A stretch of 20,000 nucleotides of DNA from an uncultured virus (IMG/VR IMGVR_UViG_3300009169_000018) (IMGVR_UViG_3300009169_000018:55549-75548), one strand, 5' to 3'. Shown: positions 680-20,000, counted from the first letter of the stretch. Notes: generated by a model not told the origin, from the sequence alone. Program-made: numbers and translations.

Positions 680-3600
680 ATGGAATTCAACGTAGATCCG
701 TACAATGACGACTTCGAACAGAACGCGAGAGATAACAACTATCTGAAGATCCTGTTCAAGCCGGGATTCTCGGTACAGGCTCGCGAACTGACTCAGATTC
801 AGTCGATCCTACAGAACCAGATCAAGGCATTTGGCGACCACATCTTTCAGGATGGCTCACCTGTCATCGGCGGAAACATTTCGCTCGACAACTCTGTTAC
901 GTACATCAAGCTAGATGAAACGTACAACAACGAAGACGTAGAACTCGACCTATTCGTAGGTCAGGTCATTCTGCGCGACTCCGACTCTCTGGTTCAAGCC
1001 AAGGTTCTAGCCTCGTACTTCCCTTCGGGCGGAACGCCTACCCTGATGGTCAAGTACATTTCGGGTGTGGACTTCTCGGACGGTGACGTATTCCGTGTCG
1101 CAGGCACCACAACCCGCGCAAAGCTGATCGACTCTTCCGCATCCGGCAAGGGTACGATTGCATCCATCAACGACGGTATCTTCTACGTTGACGGATATTT
1201 CGTCACCGTGACCCCTCAGACTGCGGTTGTCGCAGCCTACAGCCAGAACGCAAACGTAAAGATCGGTTTGGAAGTAACGGACGAAATCGTTGACTACGCG
1301 ATTGATGCCACGTTGCTTGACCCTGCGCAGGACTCCTTCAATTATCAGGCTCCCGGCGCAGATCGGTATCAGTTCGGGCTGACCCTCTCCACTCGTCCAC
1401 TCGACACCGCAGTTGACGAATCGAAATACTTCGAACTCATGCGCGTAGAGAACGGCGCAGTTACGAAGCAAGTCAAGTACGCAATCTACTCTGAAATCGA
1501 AAAGACGCTCGCACGTAGAACATTTGACGAATCGGGTGACTACACGGTTGTCCCATTCCGCGCATCGGTAGGTCCGTCGCAGGATGCCAACAACTACATC
1601 ATCAACCTTGAGCCGGGAAAGGCTTACGTCAAGGGATTTGAGTTTGAAACCATCGGTACGGTCAAGATGGAAGTCCAGAAGCCTCGCACGGACGGCATCG
1701 ACACTCGTTCGCTTGTGGACATTGACTTCGATACCTCTTACGGCAATTACCTCAAGTTCAAGAACGTCTACGGCTCCAATGCCGCATCGTTCATCAATAC
1801 GACCACGTATGACACGGTAGACCTTCACTGCACGCACGCAGGCAACGTCCATATCGGCAACGCAAACCGCTACGCCAACACGAAGATCGGTACAGCCAAG
1901 ATTCGTGCCATCCGCCGCGACATTCCCGCACAGGACGGTGTAGCCAATGTAGACACCAACGGTGTGTTTGACTTCTACTTCACCGACATGCGCATTCAGC
2001 CTAGAGTGCTTGTGTTGGAAGATGGATCAACCTCGACCACACTCAAGTTCCCTGATGACGCGAGCGTGCGCGAGAACGCATATCAGAACACCACGATTAC
2101 GGTTCTGCCGATTTCGTTGACTCCGTTCAGCACGGTCAACACAGCCAACGTCTACATGAACTCCACTCGCGTCAACGCAGAGTCTTCCCTTGCATCAATT
2201 CAGGTTGGACAGATCATTCGCGTTGCCGACGAAGTTCGCCAAGTCGTCAATGTATCCACCAACCACCTATTCGTCAACTCCGCGTTCACGAAGACAGTCA
2301 TCGGCGGCACACCAAACGCAAACGTCCAGATTCTTCTACAGAACACATACTCTTCGAACGTCACTAACCAGACTCGTAAGATCGTATCCTACGTGGGAGG
2401 CACTCAGACTGCTACCCTCGACCGAGCATTCGATGAAGGCGCGGTTCCTGCGAACAACACCGTCATTCAGTTGAACTTCGGCGTGGGTGATCTTGAGTCT
2501 TGGGTCAAGCCAAACGCAACGTTCGGTGCAGCCAATGCATCCGCAAACATTGCCGTACAGTCCACATTGCTCGACGGTTCCACAGAACTCTTTGAGCCAT
2601 CCGACAAGCGATTGATCTATCCTCTACCTCAGAACACGATCAAGCGTGGCTCGCTCAACAACGTAGACTACAACTCTTGGAAGTATGTACAGGCAACCGG
2701 TGCTGCCGGTGTCTTCACGCTGTCTCTGGAAGCCTACGAGTCGATTCCTTGGAGCATCACTAACTCTAATCTGGAAGACAACCTGATCGTCATCGTCCGC
2801 GAAGCATCGGGAACCTACGCAAATGGCACGGTCCTCAAGCTCAATACGGGCGAAGTCACTACGGGCATCGGAAGCCTTGTGGTCACGCTGCCTGCTACTA
2901 TCGGCAAGATCGACGCATACCTGATCGTCAAGCAGAACGATGCCGAAGATCGTAAGCGCACGAAGACTTTCCGTAGCAATCCTCTAATCACTACGGGACC
3001 GTTTAATGTTCCTACCGATACGGATGTTAACAACGAGCATACCGTAAACGTTCCTAACGTCGGCAACGTGGCTAAGATCAACGTAGCCAACGGGCTGATC
3101 TTCATCATCGAACCATCGGTCACGAACGTCTTCCCCGGCGACTCCATCAGTCTCTATGTTCCCGACGTAGTGAACATCCGTGCCATCCTCAAGGGTAACA
3201 CCACCCATGTTGCAGATGCAACAAATTATGAGGATATCACCGACCACTTCGCAATCGACCTCGGACAGACGGAAGAAGTCTACGAACACGCCAAGATCAC
3301 GCTAAAGAGTGGATACCCTTCCCCTAATGCGCGTCTGACGATTCACTGTGACTTCTACGACCACACGTATCCCGCAGGCGCAACCTACTTCTCGGTAGAC
3401 TCGTATGATCAGACCATCTACGAAGCCGGTCAGATTCCTATCTACTTCTCCGAAGTGACGGGAACCTACTTCCTGCGTGACTGCTTGGACTTCCGTGCGA
3501 CCCGTCGCATCGGTACCGCTGCCGGAACGCTCGACACTGGCATTCTGCCGGATCCTAACTCCGCAACGGAACTGAGCTTCAACTACTATCTCCCTCGCAT

Positions 3601-4672
3601 CGACAAGCTTGTTCTCTCCAAGAACAAGGAGTTCCGTGTGATCAAGGGCGTGTCGTCGCCTGCTCCAATTCCACCGGATGACTCCGAAGACGCAATGACG
3701 CTCTACAACATCTACCTTGCACCATTCTGTGCGTCCACGGAAGATATTCGCCTGCGTTACGTCGAGAACCGTCGCTACACCATGAAGGATATCTCGCGCA
3801 TTGACAAGCGTGTTCAGTCTCTTGAATACTACACTTCGCTGAACAACATTGAAGGGTTGGCACTCGCTGACCCATCCAAGTACGCAGACGGTACGGACAA
3901 GACGAAGTACGGTATCATCGGTGAAGGCTTCAAGAACTTCAACATTGCTGACTACAAGGATCCTGACTTCAACTGCTCCATGGAAGAGGGTGAAATGGGT
4001 CCATACGTGGGCAACATGCCATTCTCGCTCAATGCATTGACTCTAACGGGTCTTAGACAGAATGATCGTACCGTGACCCTCGACTTCACCGAAGAGGAAA
4101 TGCTTGCGCAGCCAGTGACTAGCAACAAGCTTGTCTCCGTGCAGCCGTTCCTGTTCGCTCAGTTCATGGGTGACATGAAGCTTTCGCCTGAAATGGACTT
4201 TTGGGTATCCGAAGAACTCAAGCCTGATGTGCTACGCGCACCAGAGATTGACGACCGTGTACGTGAAATCTACAACTCCGAGCGTGCGGCTGAAAGAGCG
4301 CGGGAACCGGCAGCACAAGCCCAAGTTCCTACACCTACGGTTGACGCGGGTTCGATTATCTCCACGGTTCCGGGTACCAACCCACCGGCTGCGAATACGT
4401 TCTGGAACGTTCCTGTGACTGTACCTACCGCGCCGCCATTGGTTCCTTCTCTTGCATTCCAGCTAATTACAGCAGCGAACGTGAAGAAGAACAAGAAGCG
4501 CAGTCTGTTTGACAACATCAAGCTGCTCTTCCCTGTGGTCAAGAACACGGCACCGGCACCAATTCCGCCTGCACCAAGCTCTTCGCTACCTGTTTACACT
4601 TCGCCAATTCGCATTAGCGGTGGTGGCGGCGGTGGATTCAAGGGCGGAATGACCCAAGTGAATATGGTCTAA
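680..4672 (+). CDS. Large baseplate/tail structural protein, VrlC-like/DUF4815 family (N-terminal half)
   Basis: 1330-aa ORF. The N-terminus FNVDPYNDDF...YLKILFKPGFSVQARELTQIQSILQNQI..FGDHIF.DG, plus APGADRYQ, LARRTFDESGDYTV, PGKAYVKGFE, YYLPRIDKLVL and NRRYTMKDISRIDKRVQSLEYYTSL, are characteristic of the VrlC-like virion protein of T4-like environmental myophages. It ends in a Pro-rich low-complexity tail. Confidence 0.85.
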   Translation: MEFNVDPYNDDFEQNARDNNYLKILFKPGFSVQARELTQIQSILQNQIKAFGDHIFQDGSPVIGGNISLDNSVTYIKLDETYNNEDVELDLFVGQVILRDSDSLVQAKVLASYFPSGGTPTLMVKYISGVDFSDGDVFRVAGTTTRAKLIDSSASGKGTIASINDGIFYVDGYFVTVTPQTAVVAAYSQNANVKIGLEVTDEIVDYAIDATLLDPAQDSFNYQAPGADRYQFGLTLSTRPLDTAVDESKYFELMRVENGAVTKQVKYAIYSEIEKTLARRTFDESGDYTVVPFRASVGPSQDANNYIINLEPGKAYVKGFEFETIGTVKMEVQKPRTDGIDTRSLVDIDFDTSYGNYLKFKNVYGSNAASFINTTTYDTVDLHCTHAGNVHIGNANRYANTKIGTAKIRAIRRDIPAQDGVANVDTNGVFDFYFTDMRIQPRVLVLEDGSTSTTLKFPDDASVRENAYQNTTITVLPISLTPFSTVNTANVYMNSTRVNAESSLASIQVGQIIRVADEVRQVVNVSTNHLFVNSAFTKTVIGGTPNANVQILLQNTYSSNVTNQTRKIVSYVGGTQTATLDRAFDEGAVPANNTVIQLNFGVGDLESWVKPNATFGAANASANIAVQSTLLDGSTELFEPSDKRLIYPLPQNTIKRGSLNNVDYNSWKYVQATGAAGVFTLSLEAYESIPWSITNSNLEDNLIVIVREASGTYANGTVLKLNTGEVTTGIGSLVVTLPATIGKIDAYLIVKQNDAEDRKRTKTFRSNPLITTGPFNVPTDTDVNNEHTVNVPNVGNVAKINVANGLIFIIEPSVTNVFPGDSISLYVPDVVNIRAILKGNTTHVADATNYEDITDHFAIDLGQTEEVYEHAKITLKSGYPSPNARLTIHCDFYDHTYPAGATYFSVDSYDQTIYEAGQIPIYFSEVTGTYFLRDCLDFRATRRIGTAAGTLDTGILPDPNSATELSFNYYLPRIDKLVLSKNKEFRVIKGVSSPAPIPPDDSEDAMTLYNIYLAPFCASTEDIRLRYVENRRYTMKDISRIDKRVQSLEYYTSLNNIEGLALADPSKYADGTDKTKYGIIGEGFKNFNIADYKDPDFNCSMEEGEMGPYVGNMPFSLNALTLTGLRQNDRTVTLDFTEEEMLAQPVTSNKLVSVQPFLFAQFMGDMKLSPEMDFWVSEELKPDVLRAPEIDDRVREIYNSERAAERAREPAAQAQVPTPTVDAGSIISTVPGTNPPAANTFWNVPVTVPTAPPLVPSLAFQLITAANVKKNKKRSLFDNIKLLFPVVKNTAPAPIPPAPSSSLPVYTSPIRISGGGGGGFKGGMTQVNMV

Positions 4673-4703: not shown

Positions 4704-7700
4704 ATGGCTGACCAAACCCAAGCAACAGTAGTAGGCGAATCCACCCTGATTCCGTACATGCGGAGACAGGACGTTGCGTTCGATGCAAACAACCTTCGCC
4801 CTCAGAAGTTGGCTCGACTATTCGTAGATGAAATCGCAATGAATGGCTTCTCGCAGAAGGGCAACAAGATTGTCCTCAACTCCGAGAAGGTTCTGACTGT
4901 TGTTGCTAACTCGGCTTACACTGTTCAAGCCGGGGACTGGCTCTATCAGGGATCGTCCAACGCATCCCCTACCTTCTCAGCCAACCTCAAGTCCTACGTG
5001 TCTGGAACGGGTACGCTGATCATCAATGGAATGAGCGGTAATTTCGATAGTTCAGCCAAGATTTACATCGAAAAGATCAATGGCATCACTACGTTCGAAG
5101 CGACGGTATCCAAGGAAGTCAACTCTAATACGTCTGACATTTTCGTGATGAACGAAGGTCTGATCAACGCGAACACTCGCACCTTCATGAAGTGCATCGG
5201 CTCGTCGGGTGAGAACATCCTGTATGTGTCGCAGAACTTTGTCAACATCAACGTTGCGGTCATCGGCGCAAACTCCATTGCCGCAACCACGTTCGGCGTA
5301 GGTGATCTTGTCTATCAGGCAGCTTCCGGTAGCATGTTCGATACGTCCACGTTCACTGCTAAGGTCGAATACTACGATTCATCCACCGGTTCGCTAGCAC
5401 TCACTCCGTTATCCGGCACGATCAACATTGCCGCATCCCCTACTCAGACCTCGACTCTCTGGAACTCGTCTAACACTTCTTCCAAGGGTATGCGCGTCGG
5501 CGGCTACAAGCAGATCGACATTGCGACCAACAACCGTATCGCGTCTGTCACTACCGCATCCAAGAACGTGTCGGTTGTCACGTATACGCATCACTCTGGC
5601 GCAATCGCAAACGTGGCTGCGAGCCTATCCGAGATTCACCTGAATGCGCTCGCTAACACGGTCGCAGTCGGTAACGTGATCTATCTGACCGCAGGCACAG
5701 GCTTGGGGCAGTTCCGTCGCATCACATCTATCAGTGGCAAGACCGTCACACTACATGCCGACCTGAGTGTTCGCCCTACTTCTAATACCAAATACTCTAT
5801 CGGCAACCACATTGTCGATGAGAATGGATGCCTCAACGGTATCGTCAACATTCCGGAAGAGCCTAACTTCAAGTTCAAGACCGGCGAGCGTCTGATTACA
5901 ATCACCGACGTTGACTACCTTGAGTCTGATGACTACACGATGAAGGCTTCCGCACGGTTTGCCTCGGGTGGTCTGCGCAACTCCATGCAGCGTATCAACC
6001 TTACGCCTATCATGCGTCCATTGCCAGAAGTTCCTGCGGCAATTCCGGTTGTTCCGCCTCCACCAACTTCGCGTCCGATTGCGCCTGCGCCACCGGCTCC
6101 ACCAGTTCCACCTACGCGCCCTGCACCAGTCCGTCCACAGAATCGTGGTAAGGATCCTGTTGCTCAGACCTTCTGGACTCCAAAGCCAGATACCAACAAG
6201 GTTTCGTATGGCGTGTTCGTGACTTCCGTAGACCTGTTCTTCGGTGCCAAGCCATCGGTCGCTCGCGGATCGTTGCAGCTTCCTATTCAGGTCAAGATTG
6301 CCGAAGTCGTCAACGGCTTCCCAACTCAGAACTACCTTGCCGAAGCTACGGTCAAGTGTAAGGACGTAAAGGTTTCCTTCTCTCCTTCGCTAGAGGATCC
6401 AGACACGATCACGAAGTTCACCTTCCGTGATCCTATCTACCTACAGCCAGACACCGAATATGCTCTGATCGTTATCTCCGATTCTCCGGAATACGAAGTC
6501 TATATCGCAGAACTCGGCGGCAACGTGCTAGGCGCAGATCCTCCTCAGAGAATCTCGGAACAGCCATATGCAGGCTCGTTCTTCCGCTCGCAGAACTCTT
6601 CGACTTGGACTCCATACCAGAACGAAGACCTCATGTTCCGCATCAACAAGGCTCGCTTCTCTGGATCGGGTTCGGCATCGTTCAACCTCAAGAACGTGCC
6701 TGACTTCGACATGAACGTAGACCGTATGTTCATCAACGCAGACAAGCTCACGTTCCCTGTCTCGGCAATTGATTTCAAGGTCAAGGGTGTCTTCAAGTCC
6801 AACTCCGCGTTCGACAACTACACCAACATCAAGCCACAAGAAATCTTCAAGTATGGCGACCTGATGGACTCTTCCAACAAGGAAACATCGGGAAGCTTCA
6901 ACAATGCTCGTAAGTTGATGACCGGCAATGCCAACTCGGTACAGATCCTCACGGAACTGGTTACGACGGACCCTGACGTATCGCCAGTGTTCAACATGGA
7001 AACGCTCGCAGTCGTACCGGCTGACCATGATATCAACAATGCCGGTGTCTCCAACACCATCATTTCGATCACGAATCCCGGCGCAGGCTACAACGCAGTC
7101 ATTTCTGCCGCAGATCACACAGCATCCAATCTGGTCATTCGGGGCAGTGACAGCAACAGCATGAACAATGCCGCGCAGTTGTTCCGTGAGACTTATCTGG
7201 CTAACAACTTCAACATCGGCTTCTACAACGTTCGCGTGGATACGGATGGCTATGGTTCGGGTGCAGCAGGCTTCGCAGTGGCAAACACCACCGGATCCAA
7301 CACCGTCGATTACATCGTCATCACTTCCGAAGGTTCGGGCTACCTCAAGACTCCTGTTCTGGATATATCCAACGGCAACGCAGCATCGGGTGTCATTCGG
7401 GCATCGGCTGTCGCGCAGGGTGAAAACGGATCGCGTGGTGGTAACATGGCTTGCCGTTACATCACCCGCCAGATTGCTCTGGAAGATGGCTTCGAAGCAG
7501 GCGACCTCCGCGTGTTCATGGATGCCGTCCGTCCTAACGGCACCGATATCCATGTCTACTACAAGGTTCTAGGATCCGAAGATCCCGGTCGCTTCTCCGA
7601 CAAGTCTTGGGTGCTGATGCACAAGGTCAAGGATACGAAGTCGAAGGATGCCCGTCAGGTCATTGAGCTTCAATTCCGTCCAGACCTTCTTGAGAATGAA

Positions 7701-7844
7701 CTCAAGTACACCGAGAACGGTCAGCAGTACCCAATCGGCGGCAAGTTCAAATACTTCGCAGTCAAGGTCTGCCTCACCGCAGTCGATACCTCCATTGCGC
7801 CATGGATTCAGAACTTGAGAATCACGGCAACGCCAGAAGGCTAA
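4704..7844 (+). CDS. Baseplate/tail structural protein corresponding to the C-terminal half of VrlC-like proteins
   Basis: 1046-aa ORF. Motifs IPYMRRQDV.F....LRP, FKTGER...ITD, DPVAQTF, GVFVTSVDLFF, EQPYAGSFFRSQNSSTWTPYQNEDLMF, YITRQIAL..., DIHVYYK and FKYFAVKVCL....P.IQNLRITA are ones I recall from the distal part of VrlC-like phage structural proteins. It has GAGY/GSGY beta modules and a Pro-rich linker at about 6005-6160. Confidence 0.8.
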   Translation: MADQTQATVVGESTLIPYMRRQDVAFDANNLRPQKLARLFVDEIAMNGFSQKGNKIVLNSEKVLTVVANSAYTVQAGDWLYQGSSNASPTFSANLKSYVSGTGTLIINGMSGNFDSSAKIYIEKINGITTFEATVSKEVNSNTSDIFVMNEGLINANTRTFMKCIGSSGENILYVSQNFVNINVAVIGANSIAATTFGVGDLVYQAASGSMFDTSTFTAKVEYYDSSTGSLALTPLSGTINIAASPTQTSTLWNSSNTSSKGMRVGGYKQIDIATNNRIASVTTASKNVSVVTYTHHSGAIANVAASLSEIHLNALANTVAVGNVIYLTAGTGLGQFRRITSISGKTVTLHADLSVRPTSNTKYSIGNHIVDENGCLNGIVNIPEEPNFKFKTGERLITITDVDYLESDDYTMKASARFASGGLRNSMQRINLTPIMRPLPEVPAAIPVVPPPPTSRPIAPAPPAPPVPPTRPAPVRPQNRGKDPVAQTFWTPKPDTNKVSYGVFVTSVDLFFGAKPSVARGSLQLPIQVKIAEVVNGFPTQNYLAEATVKCKDVKVSFSPSLEDPDTITKFTFRDPIYLQPDTEYALIVISDSPEYEVYIAELGGNVLGADPPQRISEQPYAGSFFRSQNSSTWTPYQNEDLMFRINKARFSGSGSASFNLKNVPDFDMNVDRMFINADKLTFPVSAIDFKVKGVFKSNSAFDNYTNIKPQEIFKYGDLMDSSNKETSGSFNNARKLMTGNANSVQILTELVTTDPDVSPVFNMETLAVVPADHDINNAGVSNTIISITNPGAGYNAVISAADHTASNLVIRGSDSNSMNNAAQLFRETYLANNFNIGFYNVRVDTDGYGSGAAGFAVANTTGSNTVDYIVITSEGSGYLKTPVLDISNGNAASGVIRASAVAQGENGSRGGNMACRYITRQIALEDGFEAGDLRVFMDAVRPNGTDIHVYYKVLGSEDPGRFSDKSWVLMHKVKDTKSKDARQVIELQFRPDLLENELKYTENGQQYPIGGKFKYFAVKVCLTAVDTSIAPWIQNLRITATPEG

Positions 7845-8065: not shown

Positions 8066-10363
8066 ATGACAAGTAGCGTAAACGTTTCCACAGTCGTAGT
8101 CGCCAACACCTTCGACCAATGGCGCATTCAGACGAATCTTCTCAAAGATGACGTAAACGAGATTGCGCGTGGTGATTTCGTCAAGCCTACGGGTAATGTC
8201 ACCCTGACAGTCGGACGTTTGGTTCTTCCTAACGCAACCGGCACCATGTTGGACGTTACGGCTGACGCTCGCGTTTCCGGTAAGATTTCGGTCAAGAACA
8301 TCGAACAGGACGGCGGCGCGGCATACCTCTATTCCGACTCTCTGGATATCAAGTTCCGCGCAGGCGACGGCACGATTCATGCCAACGGCAACACTCGTAC
8401 TCGCTTCCTCTACAACAACACGTTCTTCTCGGCAGCGAACATCAACGCAACCGGCTTCATCGAAACCACAGGCGCATCCAACAACGCTAATCTGTTGATG
8501 AATGTCGCGGGTGTAATGACGATTAGAACGAGTGCCAATAGCGGCAACGTCTACTTCGCAAACAACGTTTCGGTGGCTAACATTGCCACGATTGGCAATG
8601 CGGTCATTACCCTTGCCAACGTTGTGACTCTGAATGCCAATGCTACTGGATCGTGGATCTACGCCGCAAATATCGCAGCGACCAATGTAGCCACACCGAA
8701 TGCTGTGATGACTAGAATCATCGGCACGACGGCTAACATTGCTACCCTGAACGTGGCTGCGACTGGTGCGACAGCCAACTTTGCCAACGTTACACTCGCC
8801 AACACCACGACCACCAATGCGTCAGCATCTATGCTCACGGTTACGACCAGAGCAAATGTGGTTCTGGCTAACATCGTCACCGCAAACGTAGCGACACTGA
8901 ACGTGGCTGCTGCCGGTGCGAGTGCGAACATTGCTAACGCGAACATTGCGAACATCGTATCGGCTAACGTCATTGTGACGGCAGCGCGAGCAACGAACCT
9001 GAACGTAACAACGGGTAACATCGTCACTCTGGCTGTAGAAAGCCTTACTCTTACGAATCCAATTCTCGGTCCTGCTGAGTCTGACGCAGACTCGTACCGT
9101 CTACGTATCGCTCAGACGACTCGCGGCGATGGTAAGTTTGGCGTATTCCAAGGCACGACCAATGGCAACGCAGCCATTGCATTCGCGACTTCTTCGAACA
9201 CATGGCAGGCAACCGCGAACGACCTGACGACCTATCAGACGTTGCTCACAACCGCAAACGTTAAGTCTACTTACGCCAATGAATCGGCTAACGTTGCTTC
9301 GCTTACTCTGGTTAATAGTACAAGACTCAATGTTGAGGCAGCATACGCATCTTCGAACGTAGCTGCGAACACAGTACGTGTCTCGGCACAATCTGCATCG
9401 ACCATTCACAATGCTCAGTTGAACTTCATCAACTCGGCATCCATCAACGTTCTCGTCACTACGGGTGTCACCGGCAACGCAAACATTTCCTTCACCGCAA
9501 ACTCTTCGAACCCTGCATTGCTAGGTCCGCAGGGTATTCAGGGTGTACAGGGAACGCTAGGCGTTCAGGGTTCCGCAGGCTTTGTCGGATCAGACGGTGC
9601 GCAGGGTGCAATCGGTGCACAGGGCAGTGCCGGTTCGAATGGAACTCAAGGTGCAATCGGTGCACAGGGTATTGCCGGATCTAACGGTTCGAATGGAACT
9701 CAAGGTGCAATCGGTGCACAGGGACTTGCCGGTACTAACGGAACTCAGGGTCTTACGGGTGCACAAGGTATTGCCGGATCGAATGGTTCGAATGGTGCAC
9801 AAGGTATTGCCGGATCCAACGGTTCGAATGGATCGCAGGGTGCGCAGGGTGCTGTCGGATCCAACGGAACCAACGGATCGCAAGGCGCGACGGGTGCAAC
9901 CGGTCCATCGACCGCAATCAATGCTTCCGCATATTCGTCGGGAACGCACTATCCGGTCATGGTCGCAGGAACGGGTACCAACCAGACTCCTCGCGCATGT
10001 ACCTCCATCTTCTACTACTCAGCCGGTACCACATACTCGACCGACTTTGCCGCAACCTCGGATGCTCGCCTCAAGACCGTTCTAGGATTCGTGGATGGCG
10101 CAGTCGAGATTGTCGAGCAGTTGAACGGTATCAAGTACGTCTGGAATGACCTCGCAGCAAATCTAGGCTACGAGAGCAGTCATCCGGGTGGAGTTGAACT
10201 CGGTGTCCTCGCGCAAGAAGTCGAGGCTGTATTGCCAGAAGCAGTCTATAAGGACGATAAGGATTATCTCCATGTCTCCTATGACAAGTTGGTTCCTGTC
10301 CTGATTGAAGCTATCAAGGAATTGAATGCTCGTATCAAGGTTCTGGAAGCGGCGAAGGAATAA
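8066..10363 (+). CDS. Tail fibre protein: N-terminal anchor, Ala-Asn-rich beta-repeat shaft, collagen-like tract, C-terminal peptidase S74 intramolecular chaperone
   Basis: 765 aa. It has an N-terminal VVANTFDQWRIQTN anchor-type motif, AN(I/V)xT repeats at about 8430-9060 and a G-X-Y tract at 9524-9910. The C-terminus TSDARLK...GVLAQEVEAVLPEAV...VSYDKLVPVLIEAIKELNARIKVLE is the classic S74 autocleaving chaperone (Ser665/Lys670, Ser codon at 10058). Confidence 0.9.
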   Translation: MTSSVNVSTVVVANTFDQWRIQTNLLKDDVNEIARGDFVKPTGNVTLTVGRLVLPNATGTMLDVTADARVSGKISVKNIEQDGGAAYLYSDSLDIKFRAGDGTIHANGNTRTRFLYNNTFFSAANINATGFIETTGASNNANLLMNVAGVMTIRTSANSGNVYFANNVSVANIATIGNAVITLANVVTLNANATGSWIYAANIAATNVATPNAVMTRIIGTTANIATLNVAATGATANFANVTLANTTTTNASASMLTVTTRANVVLANIVTANVATLNVAAAGASANIANANIANIVSANVIVTAARATNLNVTTGNIVTLAVESLTLTNPILGPAESDADSYRLRIAQTTRGDGKFGVFQGTTNGNAAIAFATSSNTWQATANDLTTYQTLLTTANVKSTYANESANVASLTLVNSTRLNVEAAYASSNVAANTVRVSAQSASTIHNAQLNFINSASINVLVTTGVTGNANISFTANSSNPALLGPQGIQGVQGTLGVQGSAGFVGSDGAQGAIGAQGSAGSNGTQGAIGAQGIAGSNGSNGTQGAIGAQGLAGTNGTQGLTGAQGIAGSNGSNGAQGIAGSNGSNGSQGAQGAVGSNGTNGSQGATGATGPSTAINASAYSSGTHYPVMVAGTGTNQTPRACTSIFYYSAGTTYSTDFAATSDARLKTVLGFVDGAVEIVEQLNGIKYVWNDLAANLGYESSHPGGVELGVLAQEVEAVLPEAVYKDDKDYLHVSYDKLVPVLIEAIKELNARIKVLEAAKE
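9524..9910 (+). repeat. Collagen-like G-X-Y coding repeat (GAQ/GSN/GTQ) in fibre 1
   Basis: Uninterrupted Gly-X-Y triplets; 39-nt identical copies at 9631-9669 and 9685-9723. Confidence 0.9.
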
Positions 10364-10366
10364 TCC

Positions 10367-11359
10367 ATGGCAACGGTAGGCTCTAATCCAACTCTACTAT
10401 CTTCCGTGAAGTCCGTCTTTGGCGGCGCAGCCACCATGCTCGGATACTATCGCGGTGGAAGCAATGTGAAGAACATTGCTAACGCATATCCTAGTGTTGC
10501 GCAGTCTGGAACACTCAGCCTATTGTCGTTTGCGGGTGTGATCAATCCGACTACGTTCCTTACTGCTAATACGGACGCATCAGATTCTCAGAACGATGGA
10601 TCCGGAGCAGATGCGGGGATTTATGCGGGTAATGAGTACGGAAGTAACATACTTCATACTCCCAATGGTGGTAATCCCACATGGCTATTGGCGGGAAATC
10701 GTGGTGACTATGAGATTCAATTGACAAAAACTTCTGGAACCACTCCTACCGGAAGTGCTGTCAATACATGGTTCAATATGGGCAGCACTGGCATTACGTG
10801 GTATCTCTCTCAGACACCAAATAACGGCAGTAAGACCTTCTATGGGCAATTGAAGATTCGTATGTCAGCCTCGCCACAGACGATTCTGAATACCGCAGGC
10901 GTGTATCTATACGTCTTCGCAGCATCAAACCAGTGTCCTCAGTGCTGCTTCACGCCAGATACGCTTATCTCCATGGGCGATGGAACGACCAGAGCAATCG
11001 CAATGGTCATGGTTGGCGACGAGATTCTCGTTCGCGGCGGAACGAAGCGAGTCACGGAAGTCATCACTCGGACGAATCGCGTCATGTACCAGATTCAGTT
11101 CGCAGATGGTCGCGTCCTCAATGCCTCGGAAGACCACCCTCTATACGTGGTGGACAAGGGTTACGCAGCCATCAACCCCGGTGTCGGTGGAGACTACAAG
11201 GACTTGGGTATTCCGGATCAGTTGTACGTGGGCGACCTTGTACTCGACTCGGAAGGCAGAGAGAATCAGATTGTCGATATCATTGACCTTGACTATCCAG
11301 AAACGGTCTACACCTTTGCAGAATCGGAGTTCTACGCGAACGGAATGCTCGTCTACTAA
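10367..11359 (+). CDS. Putative fibre-tip adhesin/receptor-binding protein with C-terminal Hint (intein/Hedgehog-like) domain
   Basis: 330 aa, starting 3 nt after the S74 fibre stop. The N-terminus (LSSVKSVFGG...LGYYRGG...SGTLSLLSFAG) resembles the small attachment domain of adhesins encoded after S74 fibres. Residues 194-330 (10946-11359) are Hint-like: block A CFTPDTLISMGDG..AIAMVMVGDEIL, block B VLNASEDHPLYV, LYVGDLV, block F ETVYTF, block G EFYANGMLVY-stop. Confidence 0.8.
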   Translation: MATVGSNPTLLSSVKSVFGGAATMLGYYRGGSNVKNIANAYPSVAQSGTLSLLSFAGVINPTTFLTANTDASDSQNDGSGADAGIYAGNEYGSNILHTPNGGNPTWLLAGNRGDYEIQLTKTSGTTPTGSAVNTWFNMGSTGITWYLSQTPNNGSKTFYGQLKIRMSASPQTILNTAGVYLYVFAASNQCPQCCFTPDTLISMGDGTTRAIAMVMVGDEILVRGGTKRVTEVITRTNRVMYQIQFADGRVLNASEDHPLYVVDKGYAAINPGVGGDYKDLGIPDQLYVGDLVLDSEGRENQIVDIIDLDYPETVYTFAESEFYANGMLVY

Positions 11360-11394: not shown

Positions 11395-11724
11395 ATGTAC
11401 GCAGAACTTACCATTGATCAGGGCGCGACTTTCTCCTCGGTCATCAATCTAACGAACGACGACAATTCGGTGATTGATATCACCAATTCCACGTTCTCAG
11501 CCGAAATTCGCAAGTCGTATTACTCGACCAATGCGACAGCCATCATTACCGTGACCAAAGAAGACGCTGCCAACGGCATCGTTCGGCTCGCCATCCCTGC
11601 GGCTAACACAGCCAACATCAAGCCGGGACGCTATCTCTACGACCTCAAGATGACCGATGTATCCAATGTGACTGTGCGCGTCATTGAAGGCATTGTGACG
11701 ATTACGCCACAGGTCACTAGATGA
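11395..11724 (+). CDS. Small Ig-like virion protein, probable fibre adaptor/collar (LtfC/p132- or BppU_N-like)
   Basis: 109 aa. ELTIDQGATF...DIT...FSAEIRKSY...GIVRLAI....TANIKPGRYLYDLKM...RVIEGIVTITPQVTR matches a conserved T4-like environmental phage virion protein. Its stop overlaps the next start (ATGA at 11721-11724), indicating translational coupling. Confidence 0.8.
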   Translation: MYAELTIDQGATFSSVINLTNDDNSVIDITNSTFSAEIRKSYYSTNATAIITVTKEDAANGIVRLAIPAANTANIKPGRYLYDLKMTDVSNVTVRVIEGIVTITPQVTR

Positions 11725-19244: not shown

Positions 19245-20000
19245 ATGGCAGACTTCCCTTCTAATCCGACTATCGGCACGATCTTCACTTCCAACGATGG
19301 TACGTCTTGGGAGTGGGATGGCTATTCTTGGAAAGCGGGTGGTGGACTCGGCGGTGGCGGTGGAATCTCTGAGATTTTCGTATCCGCAAACTCCGCATCG
19401 ACGGTCAATGCCAATGGATTGAACTTCATCAACACTGCGTCCGTTCTGGTCAGTGTCGTTCAGGGTGTTACCGGTAACGCTAATGTATCCTTCCATGCGA
19501 GCGGTATTCAGGGTGCGCAGGGTACACAGGGAACTCAGGGTCTTAGTGGTATTCAGGGTGTCCAAGGCACTCAGGGTGTGCAGGGAGTTCAGGGAATCCA
19601 AGGCACTCAGGGTGTACAGGGTCTAGACGGTCAGTTCGCAGGACAGGGTGTGACCGGCGCACAAGGTTCGACCGGTGTTCAGGGAACCGAAGGTTCAGCC
19701 GGTGAAACGATGATGTGGACGGATTCGTTCACGGCATCCGCAAACCAATCAGCATTCACTCTCAGCATTGCTCCGAATGACGAGAAGTATACCATCGTCA
19801 CTCGCAACGGTGTTGTTCTTGTTCCGACGACTCACTACACCGTTTCCGGCACGACTCTTACTCTTACCTCTAACACTCAGCTAAACGATATTGTCGAAGC
19901 TCGTACCTTCGAAACGTTGGGTATCGGTGTTCAAGGTGTACAGGGTGCACAGGGATCGCAGGGTGTTCAAGGTGTACAAGGCACGCAAGGTGTCCAAGGC
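19245..20000 (+). CDS. Collagen-like fibre protein 4 (3'-truncated by the window edge; absent from the supplied ORF track)
   Basis: My translation is open to the end: [34 protein letters not shown]...[38 protein letters not shown]...[15 protein letters not shown]...[15 protein letters not shown]...[10 protein letters not shown]. The FPSNPT.G...W.WDG..W start is a common phage fibre motif. It is preceded by CTAAATA and an SD-like sequence. Confidence 0.85.

What the first reader, a model, noticed from the sequence alone, without database searches (positions are those of the whole stretch)
10367..11359. Putative fibre-tip adhesin ending in a non-splicing Hint domain (Cys1 and block-B His intact; no His-Asn, no C-extein)
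Seen: residues 194-330 form a compact Hint domain (CFTPDT...; ASEDHPLYV; TVYTF; FYANGMLVY-stop). The protein stops where inteins and BILs usually have '-VHN' plus a nucleophile, and the usual block-F Asp position is Thr. Known: Cys1 and the block-B His drive the N-S acyl shift, while the terminal Asn and a C-extein nucleophile are needed for C-cleavage and splicing. Hedgehog Hint domains resolve the thioester with an external nucleophile (cholesterol). Inference: this domain cannot splice but may activate the C-terminus of the 193-aa adhesin as a thioester. The tip protein could then self-release, or be covalently joined to a fibre subunit, small molecule, lipid or host-surface group. That would be a Hedgehog-like auto-processing or 'covalent harpoon' receptor-binding system on a phage fibre.
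Basis: partly seen in the sequence, partly recalled or inferred. Interest (0 to 1): 0.85.

Follow-up and report, generated by a model that had tools for sequence, protein, structure and literature searches.

The report
Self-cleaving Hint cap on phage tail protein
A small tail-region protein of an uncultured T4-like phage ends in an intein-like domain that keeps the parts needed to break the bond at its own start but lacks the parts needed for splicing, and the same domain ends many other phage tail proteins.

Summary
ORF 10367-11359 (+) encodes 330 aa. Residues 194-330 are a Hint domain: the AlphaFold2 model has pLDDT 88.7, Foldseek E is 1e-10 to a BIL domain, and a profile search against PDB gives 3e-12.

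The HN-less ending is not a recent defect or a sequencing error. All 78 homologues from the word-indexed search end in Tyr-stop. In a census of 246 Hint domains, 127 end in ...[LM][VAT]Y-stop (one in F). These 127, plus two variants, form one split of the tree (support 98).

In that clade Cys1 is kept in 126 of 127 (the other is cut at its start). Block B [ST]xxHP is kept in 127 of 127. A CxxC-C junction is kept in 117 of 127.

The clade is almost confined to viral contigs and sits on varied cargo: Ig-like domains, Gly-rich domains, a J-like central fibre, and subtilases. Unfused homologues of the N-domain end a few residues before the junction.

Best reading: a BIL-derived module that does only the N-S acyl shift and so removes itself from, or activates the C-terminus of, a tail protein. 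The "fibre-tip adhesin" and "covalent harpoon" parts are untested. I class it as a new variant of a known kind.

The parts
10367..11359 (+). Whole gene: 330-aa two-domain tail-module protein plus TAA stop. It starts 3 nt after the stop of the upstream fibre gene.
10367..10933 (+). N-terminal cargo domain (residues 1-189). It has a conserved about 60-aa leader (MATVxxPxxLSSVKSVFGG..NL..Y.RGG.YV...SG.L.LS.FAG) packed onto an Ig-like beta-sandwich (residues 61-189).
   Evidence: The AF2 model has pLDDT 89.9 and pTM 0.82. Foldseek finds no PDB match at E<=1e-3, and the best VIA Z is 6.1. BFVD gives 15 matches at E<=1e-3; the named ones are uncharacterised proteins of uncultured phages or viruses and several rows carry no name. 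Eleven unfused homologues of 174-206 aa exist.
10934..10945 (+). Junction motif C190-P-Q-C193 (N-extein positions -4 to -1).
   Evidence: C190 and C193 are invariant in 34 sequences. CPxCC occurs in 105 of 127 clade members and CxxCC in a further 12.
10946..10948 (+). Cys1 (C194), the predicted nucleophile for the N-S acyl shift. The predicted scissile bond is C193|C194.
   Evidence: Pfam Hom_end_hint model position 1 aligns to residue 194. C194 aligns to the mutated C1A of BIL2 in the profile alignment. It is invariant.
10946..11356 (+). Hint domain (residues 194-330, 137 aa), BIL-like, ending exactly at the protein's C-terminus.
11126..11137 (+). Block B S254-E-D-H257, the counterpart of intein TxxH, followed by the invariant P258.
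   Evidence: H257 and P258 are invariant. [ST]xxHP occurs in 127 of 127. It aligns with TFDHPFYV of the C. thermocellum BIL.
11303..11356 (+). Blocks F/G remnant TVYTF-AESE-FYANGMLVY. T316 stands where class-1 inteins have Asp. Y330 stands where relatives have the penultimate His. The Asn is absent.
8066..10363 (+). Upstream fibre gene: collagen repeats followed directly by a Peptidase_S74 self-cleaving chaperone domain. It is a syntenic neighbour in the T4-like relatives.
11395..11724 (+). Downstream 109-aa phrog_1084 gene. It is syntenic in the T4-like relatives (L003, L004, L015), and its stop overlaps the start of the next collagen fibre gene.

Best explanation
The gene encodes a tail-module protein made of a variable Ig-like cargo domain (residues 1-189), a CPxC junction, and a 137-aa Hint domain derived from A-type bacterial intein-like (BIL) domains. 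The Hint domain has lost the terminal His-Asn and everything after it.

The domain keeps what the first protein-splicing step needs: Cys1, and block B Ser/Thr-x-x-His. It has lost what the later steps need: the block-F His, the penultimate His, the terminal Asn and a C-extein.

I therefore propose that it performs only the N-S acyl shift at C193|C194. The resulting thioester is then resolved by water or a cellular thiol. That sheds the Hint domain and leaves a roughly 193-aa mature tail protein ending in ...CPQC. In use it would resemble the unrelated Peptidase_S74 self-cleaving chaperone on the fibre gene next door: a conserved, portable, self-removing C-terminal module. The invariant junction cysteines may gate the reaction through redox state or a metal.

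Shown here: the fold, the residues, the conservation, the clade, and the modular spread across tail proteins. Inferred: that cleavage happens, when it happens, and what it is for.
For: Fold and kinship:
- The AF2 model has pLDDT 88.7.
- Foldseek top hits are BIL2 (1.1e-10), the gp41-1 intein, the C. thermocellum BIL and DnaB inteins.
- The profile search against PDB gives BIL2 3.3e-12 and 2lwy 8.9e-10.

Catalytic set for step 1 is under selection:
- C194, H257 and P258 are invariant in 34 sequences.
- [ST]xxHP occurs in 127 of 127 clade members.
- A Cys is the first residue in 244 of 246 Hint domains.

The ending is fixed:
- 78 of 78 homologues end in Y.
- The 127 terminal domains (LVY 111, LAY 6, LTY 5, MVY 2, MAY 1, QVY 1, LVF 1) plus 2 variants form one split with support 98, apart from 117 HN-type or other domains.

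The module is portable:
- The Hint part is far more conserved than the cargo: 60% against 26% mean pairwise identity over 561 pairs.
- P0006 is 94% identical in the Hint part but 45% in the cargo.
- P0016 carries a 90%-identical Hint domain on a Gly-rich protein.
- Other cargos are a J-like central fibre, a tail protein and subtilases.

The junction is a natural protein end. Eleven unfused cargo homologues of 174-206 aa stop a few residues before the column where fused ones read CPxCC.

Known chemistry. BILs form an N-terminal thioester, and cleavage products dominate their reactions (passages read in PMC4031507).
Against: No experiment or proteome shows cleavage.

Thr replaces the block-F Asp in 120 of 127 members, and the block-F His is absent. 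In class-1 inteins these residues help the N-terminal steps, so the rate could be low.

The very high conservation of a domain that is thrown away needs explaining. It fits a retained functional role at least as well.

I could not obtain the genomic context of the unfused cargo homologues, so their orthology to this gene is not shown.

The tree is a FastTree on 149 columns for 246 rows, and many forks are unresolved.
Confidence: 0.55

Rival explanations
1. Covalent transfer. The thioester at C193 is not simply hydrolysed. It is captured by a specific nucleophile, such as a lysine or N-terminus of another virion protein, a host-surface group, or the protein's own Cys190 (giving a C-terminal four-residue thiolactone). 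The Hint domain would then act as a single-use ligase or warhead generator.
For: The best sequence and structure match is Tetrahymena BIL2. Its authors report that it conjugates its N-extein to lysines of other proteins without ATP (passage read in PMC8616854). The invariant CPxC just before Cys1, found as CxxCC in 117 of 127 members, is unexplained by plain hydrolysis. A conserved non-catalytic YKDLG loop and the exactly fixed C-terminal Tyr carboxylate could form a nucleophile-binding site. In P0096 the module sits at the end of a J-like central fibre, which in J-type fibres is the receptor-binding end (the role of that end is recalled).
Against: No acceptor has been identified. Backbone thioesters are labile, so storage in a virion is unlikely. 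The cargos are too varied (tail proteins and subtilases) for one shared acceptor. The thiolactone idea rests on geometry reasoned from memory, not on a computation.
Confidence: 0.15
2. No cleavage. The Hint domain stays attached and serves as a structural, docking or receptor-binding domain. The conserved 'catalytic' residues would be kept for fold stability or for metal or disulfide binding.
For: The Hint part is the most conserved part of the protein, at 60% against 26% identity. The block-F Asp and His are missing. AXH domains, which Pfam matches in 27 of 34 members, are non-catalytic relatives of this fold.
Against: A domain with no chemistry has no reason to keep Cys1, the [ST]xxH block and an exact C-terminal end in 127 clade members. 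A shared docking site is unlikely across myovirus-like, podovirus-like and siphovirus-like tail modules and subtilases. The unfused cargo homologues show the cargo can exist as a separate protein without it.
Confidence: 0.2
3. A decayed intein or BIL remnant, or an assembly or sequencing error at the stop codon.
For: None beyond the missing His-Asn.
Against: The same ending occurs in 78 of 78 homologues and in 127 cluster representatives that form one clade. Downstream sequence in frame holds no HN.
Confidence: 0.01

Closest known systems
A-type bacterial intein-like (BIL) domains. Examples are the C. thermocellum BIL (PDB 2lwy), the Tetrahymena BUBL1 BIL2 (PDB 6y75, 6tmm), and the tandem BIL arrays found here in metagenomic proteins.
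   Same: The Hint fold is shared. Cys1 is followed by F/L-x-x-x-T. The block B motif is DHP[LF]YV. Block G reads F[FY]ANG.L[VA]. There is no +1 nucleophile. These are the best matches by sequence profile (3.3e-12 and 8.9e-10) and by fold.
   Different: A-type BILs end in His-Asn and have a downstream polypeptide. This domain stops at Tyr in the His position, with no Asn and nothing after it. It has a CPxC at positions -4 to -1. It lies at the end of phage tail proteins and forms a separate clade.
Hedgehog/Hog autoprocessing domain
   Same: It is a C-terminal Hint domain that cleaves at its own N-terminus through a Cys thioester and releases an N-terminal cargo, with no splicing.
   Different: It is only a distant relative (profile E 1.6e-3; Foldseek about 1e-5). 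Hedgehog has a sterol-recognition region after the Hint core and uses cholesterol as the nucleophile (recalled), whereas here the protein ends at the Hint core.
Class-1 mini-inteins (gp41-1, DnaB)
   Same: Fold, Cys1 and block B are shared. TM by target is 0.86 to gp41-1.
   Different: This domain has no His-Asn, no C-extein and no block-F Asp or His. It is not inserted in a conserved host protein, so splicing is impossible.
Peptidase_S74 intramolecular chaperone of phage fibres and spikes (present in the neighbouring gene 8066-10363)
   Same: The proposed use is the same: a conserved, portable C-terminal module on varied phage tail proteins that removes itself.
   Different: The fold and chemistry are unrelated (serine-lysine autoproteolysis after trimer assembly; recalled). 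This is an analogy only.
Pretoxin Hint (PT-HINT) of polymorphic toxins
   Same: It is a Hint domain used to release a neighbouring module. Of 34 members, 11 give weak PF07591 hits.
   Different: PT-HINT sits upstream of a toxin domain that it releases. Here nothing lies downstream.

Membership tests
Hint superfamily (Hedgehog/intein fold) | Hint fold | tested here: met
   The AF2 model has pLDDT 88.7. Foldseek PDB gives 57 matches at E<=1e-3. All listed ones are BIL, intein or Hedgehog structures, with TM by target up to 0.86.
Hint superfamily (Hedgehog/intein fold) | Sequence match to Hint-clan profiles | tested here: met
   Single Pfam hits fall below their gathering scores. Even so, 32 of 34 homologues hit Hom_end_hint, and the profile search against PDB gives 3.3e-12 to BIL2.
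Hint superfamily (Hedgehog/intein fold) | N-terminal nucleophile and block B [TS]xxH | tested here: met
   C194 and H257 are invariant. [ST]xxHP occurs in 127 of 127.
Intein (class 1) | C-terminal His-Asn | tested here: not met
   The protein ends ...LVY-stop, as do 127 clade members.
Intein (class 1) | C-extein with a +1 Cys/Ser/Thr, and insertion within a conserved host protein | tested here: not met
   The stop codon follows Y330 directly. The domain is always terminal in the clade.
BIL type A | BIL-type blocks A, B and G, with no +1 nucleophile | tested here: met
   The alignments to 2lwy and BIL2 show them. The nearest non-clade relatives are tandem ...LVHNK|CF arrays.
BIL type A | C-terminal His-Asn (definition as given in PMC4031507) | tested here: not met
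   Y330 stands in the His position and there is no Asn.
BIL type B | No similarity to intein block G (definition as given in PMC4031507) | tested here: not met
   A block G-like F[YF]ANG.LV is retained and aligns with FFANGVLA of BIL2.
Hedgehog/Hog | Sterol- or adduct-recognition region after the Hint core | tested here: not met
   The protein ends at the last Hint strand.
Hedgehog/Hog | Autocleavage at Cys1 with transfer to an external nucleophile | not testable with these tools
   This needs biochemistry.
PT-HINT | Lies immediately upstream of a C-terminal toxin module | tested here: not met
   Nothing lies downstream. PF07591 hits are weak and occur in 11 of 34 members.
Phage tail-fibre tip adhesin | Known receptor-binding fold, or a demonstrated place at a fibre tip | tested here: inconclusive
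   The N-domain is a generic Ig-like sandwich. Foldseek PDB gives no match at E<=1e-3, and the best VIA Z of 6.1 is within the stated background. Only gene order links it to fibres.

The most novel reading that the evidence does not exclude
The terminal Hint domain is a single-use chemical activator on phage tails. It would turn the C-terminus of a tail protein into a thioester. That thioester would then be passed either to Cys190, giving a CPxC thiolactone warhead loosely comparable to the thioesters of complement C3 or staphylococcal AIP (both recalled), or to an amine of a partner virion protein or of the host surface. The result would be a covalent link made without ATP or a separate enzyme. 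The exactly conserved C-terminal Tyr carboxylate and the YKDLG loop would form the acceptor site.
Probability: 0.12. Interest if true: 0.9.

Novelty: new variant of a known kind. Interest (0 to 1): 0.62.

Why it matters
If the module cleaves as proposed, phages would have a second, chemically unrelated self-removing C-terminal module for tail proteins, beside the S74 chaperone. It is spread across myovirus-like, podovirus-like and siphovirus-like tail regions and is almost absent from cellular genomes (1 locus in a scan of 185,579 species' genomes).

For the intein field it would be a natural 137-aa Hint domain committed to the first splicing step only, with a fixed CPxC-Cys junction and a fixed terminal Tyr. 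That makes it a clean system for asking what the N-S acyl shift alone needs. It is also a possible natural counterpart of the engineered Asn-mutant inteins used to make protein thioesters (recalled).

If the thioester is instead handed to another molecule, this would be a new way of building or arming a phage tail.

Tried and rejected
Cultured phages. A tblastn of the protein against 50,697 phage records found nothing at E 1e-5. With the unfused homologue P0146, only the first 50 or so residues matched 6 records. No cultured phage with this gene is therefore in hand.

Context of the unfused cargo homologues. Two alignments were too loose for the locus search (errors). P0113 in viral contigs found none. 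A5 in viral contigs and in metagenome contigs returned only the window's own sequence. A6 in metagenome contigs found none. Whether the unfused forms sit in the same gene slot is therefore unknown.

Names and accessions of the NCBI-sourced members.

Fold of the N-domain. Foldseek PDB gave no match at E<=1e-3. VIA-align over 48,161 chains gave a best Z of 6.1, within the stated background. BFVD gave mainly uncharacterised or unnamed phage proteins. Atlas structure rows show a similar beta-sandwich + Hint layout in Bacteroidota proteins with a NADase_transloc glycan-binding domain (TM 0.49-0.52). That is a lead only, because Pfam finds no such domain in this protein.

Earlier findings of this scan. 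None were found by sequence.

Literature. Searches for 'Hint domain'+'tail fiber'+'phage' (the two most promising of the 4 papers, read in passages, concern terminase inteins; the other 2 were seen as listings only), 'bacterial intein-like'+'phage' (12 papers, listing only), 'Hint domain'+'cyanophage', 'intein-like'+'tail fiber' (0 papers) and 'C-terminal Hint domain' (animal Hedgehog papers) found no description of this family. Subscription journals are outside the library.

Complex prediction was not used. I make no binding claim, and no single partner stood out among four fibre genes.

Rejected readings: recent degeneration or a sequencing error (see rivals), and a hidden HN by readthrough (the frame after the stop reads F-P-K-stop).

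Full report
**What is there.** The window is the tail-fibre region of an uncultured T4-like myovirus. The record is 75.5 kb and is estimated to be 44% complete. On the + strand it carries, in order:
- a baseplate wedge gene;
- two large DUF4815/phrog_358 genes;
- a small virion protein gene;
- a fibre gene (8066-10363) with collagen repeats followed directly by a Peptidase_S74 self-cleaving chaperone;
- the gene in question (10367-11359);
- a 109-aa phrog_1084 gene;
- three more collagen-like fibre genes.

The nearest cultured relatives of the DUF4815 protein are Synechococcus phages and a Pelagibacter myophage, at 28-36% identity. Window G+C is 53%.

The ORF is 330 aa. The quoted motifs lie at 190-199 CPQCCFTPDT, 253-261 ASEDHPLYV, 313-317 TVYTF and 322-330 FYANGMLVY, followed by TAA. 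The protein's only three cysteines are those in CPQCC.

Single-sequence Pfam hits fall below their gathering scores: Hom_end_hint 4.3e-6 at 27.3 bits against a 32.1 cut-off, and Hint 0.0034. The family evidence is strong:
- Of 34 homologues, 32 hit Hom_end_hint, 27 AXH, 25 Hint, 24 Vint, 24 Hint_2, 11 PT-HINT and 3 Intein_splicing at E <= 0.01.
- An 18-sequence profile of the domain hits Tetrahymena BIL2 at 3.3e-12, the C. thermocellum BIL at 8.9e-10, the gp41-1 intein at 1.2e-7 and Hedgehog at 1.6e-3.
- The AlphaFold2 model (34-sequence alignment, mean pLDDT 88.7, pTM 0.59) gives 57 Foldseek PDB matches at E <= 1e-3. The order is BIL2 (1.1e-10), gp41-1 (TM by target 0.86), 2lwy, DnaB and RecA inteins, then Hedgehog at about 1e-5.

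Cys1 is C194. Pfam model position 1 aligns there, and C194 aligns with the mutated C1A of BIL2.

**The ending is a conserved feature, not decay.** The word-indexed search returned 78 proteins at E <= 1e-3 among 1699 candidates. All 78 end in Tyr. The exhaustive representative search found 1071 proteins at E <= 1e-3, 165 at 1e-10 and 47 at 1e-30.

I built an HMM from the domain alignment and ran it over all 213 stored proteins. It found 307 domain hits in 201 proteins. Of these, 246 were near full length, in 184 proteins. They divide as follows:

| Class | Count |
|---|---|
| End the protein in Y (126) or F (1) | 127 |
| Internal, with His-Asn | 78 |
| End in HN plus 1-4 residues | 10 |
| End in other short tails (e.g. 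...LVHSEI) | 16 |
| Internal, without HN | 15 |

Among the 127 terminal domains:
- The last three residues are LVY 111, LAY 6, LTY 5, MVY 2, MAY 1, QVY 1 and LVF 1.
- Block B is [ST]xxHP in 127 of 127.
- The block-F 'VYD' position is Thr in 120.
- The junction is CPxCC in 105, CxxCC in 12, xxxCC in 8 and a lone Cys1 in 1. One is truncated at its start.

I built a FastTree on the domains with their last four residues removed. All 127, plus two variants with altered ends (P0105, P0117), fall on one side of a branch with SH-like support 98, apart from the other 117. This tree has 149 columns for 246 rows and many open forks, so only this one split is used.

**Which residues are kept and which are lost.** The residues known to drive the first splicing step are kept: Cys1 and the block-B Ser/Thr and His. 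The DHPLYV motif is shared with the C. thermocellum BIL (TFDHPFYV).

Three things are lost:
- The block-F Asp has become Thr.
- The block-F His is gone. The segment reads [EN]S[EKR]F where relatives read HNF.
- The penultimate His and the terminal Asn are gone.

Compare ...F[FY]ANG.L[VA]HN-K/C in the tandem relatives and BIL2 with ...FYANGMLVY-stop here. Tyr sits in the His position and the chain stops there. Because the two ends of a Hint domain meet at the active site (established knowledge of the fold), the free carboxylate of Y330 should lie next to the scissile bond. The never-varying chain length then suggests a role for it. This last point is inference.

**A portable module on varied cargo.** Within the 34-sequence alignment, mean pairwise identity is 26% in the cargo and 60% in the Hint part (561 pairs). 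For the 15 closest full-length relatives it is 43% against 78%. P0006 is 94% identical in the Hint part and 45% in the cargo. P0016 has a 90%-identical Hint part on a 552-aa Gly-rich protein.

Other cargos:
- a 1324-aa J-like central fibre (P0096: phrog_31, Phage-tail_3);
- a tail-fibre-like 950-aa protein (P0109);
- a tail protein placed after the tape measure and distal tail protein genes (L006);
- Peptidase_S8 subtilases (P0120, P0196, L013).

I scanned the neighbours in 10 viral loci:
- 8 have tail or fibre genes next door (L003, L004, L005, L006, L008, L009, L015, L016);
- 1 has a DNA-ejection protein nearby (L007);
- 1 is the subtilase fusion beside a 2OG-Fe(II) oxygenase (L013).

In the three T4-like loci (L003, L004, L015) the order is the same as in the window: S74 fibre, Hint protein, phrog_1084 gene, collagen fibre.

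The clade is close to virus-only. A pattern scan of one genome for each of 185,579 prokaryote species confirmed one locus, on a MAG contig. The top Atlas neighbours are clusters listed as 100% viruses.

**The junction is a natural protein end.** The representative search also found eleven proteins of 174-206 aa that match only residues 1 to about 180. In the alignment they all stop a few residues before the column where the fused proteins read CPxCC. Fragments cut by contig ends would stop at scattered places, so these are probably complete unfused forms of the cargo. I could not recover their genomic context.

**The cargo domain.** Folded alone with 30 sequences, it gives pLDDT 89.9 and pTM 0.82. 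It is a conserved roughly 60-residue leader packed on an Ig-like sandwich (residues 61-189). Nothing specific matches it:
- Foldseek PDB gives no hit at E <= 1e-3.
- The best VIA Z is 6.1, within background.
- BFVD gives 15 matches at E <= 1e-3; the named ones are uncharacterised proteins of uncultured phages or viruses, and several rows carry no name.

'Adhesin' is therefore a guess from gene order, not a finding.

**Most likely mechanism.** The steps below are inferred unless marked as shown.
1. The block-B residues promote the N-S acyl shift of the C193-C194 bond onto the C194 thiol. The residues are shown; the reaction is inferred from intein and BIL chemistry. In the passages read from PMC4031507, type A BILs form an N-terminal thioester and cleavage products dominate.
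2. With no Asn and no C-extein, neither splicing nor C-cleavage can follow (shown from the sequence).
3. Water or a cellular thiol resolves the thioester. This releases a roughly 193-aa tail protein ending ...CPQC and a 137-aa Hint fragment.
4. The CPxC next to Cys1 may gate this step. An extein Cys at -3 forming a disulfide with Cys1 is a documented redox trap for N-cleavage, both engineered and natural (passage read in PMC3922620). Zinc activates BIL2 (passage read in PMC8616854). Here the cysteines are at -4 and -1, so this is analogy only.

In use the module would parallel the S74 chaperone of the adjacent fibre gene.

**Rivals.**
- Covalent transfer of the activated cargo to another molecule, or to Cys190 as a thiolactone. 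This has a real precedent in BIL2, the closest solved relative, which conjugates its ubiquitin-like N-extein to lysines. No acceptor is known here.
- A non-cleaving structural role. It fits the high conservation and the lost block-F residues. It does not explain the fixed Cys1, block B and chain end across such varied cargos.
- Decay or sequencing error is excluded by the census.

**Comparison with known families and novelty.** The domain is a member of the Hint superfamily, nearest to A-type BILs. It fails a defining feature of each named subfamily:
- inteins: it has no HN and no C-extein;
- A-type BILs: it has no HN;
- B-type BILs: it keeps block G;
- Hedgehog/Hog: it has no adduct-recognition region;
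- PT-HINT: it has no downstream module.

It works most like Hedgehog/Hog in outline (a terminal Hint domain that cleaves at its own start) and like S74 in use. Five literature searches found no description of a Hint domain on phage tail proteins. The library lacks most subscription journals, and I read only passages of five papers and no supplements. I rate it a new variant of a known kind. It should be of real interest to people who work on inteins and on phage tail assembly, but its function is unproven.

Noticed in passing
window 8066-10363 (+): In this fibre gene the collagen repeats (about residues 484-632) run almost straight into the Peptidase_S74 chaperone (about 649-764). After self-cleavage the mature fibre would end in a collagen stalk with no globular C-terminal domain. 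The Hint-protein gene starts 3 nt after this gene's stop.
   Followed up: partly
window 680-4672 and 4704-7844 (+): Two adjacent large ORFs match the N-terminal part (profile 6-1114) and a later part (1321-1586) of the same 2056-position PHROG (phrog_358, DUF4815/'VrlC'-like). This looks like a single long structural gene split in two in this phage.
   Followed up: no
window 11395-11724 (+); L003 5616-5954; L004 2891-3265; L015 7133-7468: A small phrog_1084/phrog_3304 ('L-shaped tail fiber protein assembly'-like) gene always follows the Hint-protein gene in the T4-like relatives. In the window its stop overlaps the start of the next collagen fibre gene.
   Followed up: partly
proteins P0089, P0090, P0108, P0125, P0129, P0143 (metagenomic): The nearest non-clade relatives are long proteins with 4-7 tandem BIL-like Hint domains joined head to tail as ...LVHNK-(G)CF.... 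Some end in Cys-rich repeats. Their function is unknown.
   Followed up: no
L013 4405-6450; L014 4384-6429; P0120; P0196: The same terminal Hint clade caps Peptidase_S8 subtilases on viral contigs. In L013 the gene lies near a 2OG-Fe(II) oxygenase, outside any tail module.
   Followed up: partly
P0145, P0162, P0202, P0210, P0211; P0161, P0170, P0175, P0178, P0205, P0209: Other protein-terminal Hint endings recur in relatives: ...LVHSEI-stop, and ...[IL][VT]HN followed by K or KL and then stop, in the proteins listed here (two further ones end ...LVHNR or ...LVHNRHD). In the HN-type endings C-cleavage would free only one or two residues. Terminal Hint domains have therefore arisen more than once.
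   Followed up: no
window 10367-10546 (residues 1-60); phage records H1-H6: The N-terminal motif of about 50 residues (..LS.V...FGG.N.L..Y.RGG.YV....SG.I.LS.F.G) recurs at the start of hypothetical or tail-fibre-adjacent proteins of Lentibacter, Rhizobium and Synechococcus phages. It also occurs internally, after a Gly-rich domain, in the 550-aa clade members.
   Followed up: no
Atlas rows: Bacteroidota proteins of 333-394 aa combine a NADase_transloc (glycan-binding beta-sandwich) domain with a C-terminal Hint domain. This is the same two-domain layout, in bacteria.
   Followed up: no
window 19245-20000 (+): The last, open-ended fibre ORF pairs collagen repeats with a weak CBM_X2 carbohydrate-binding match (E 2.4e-5, below the cut-off).
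   Followed up: no
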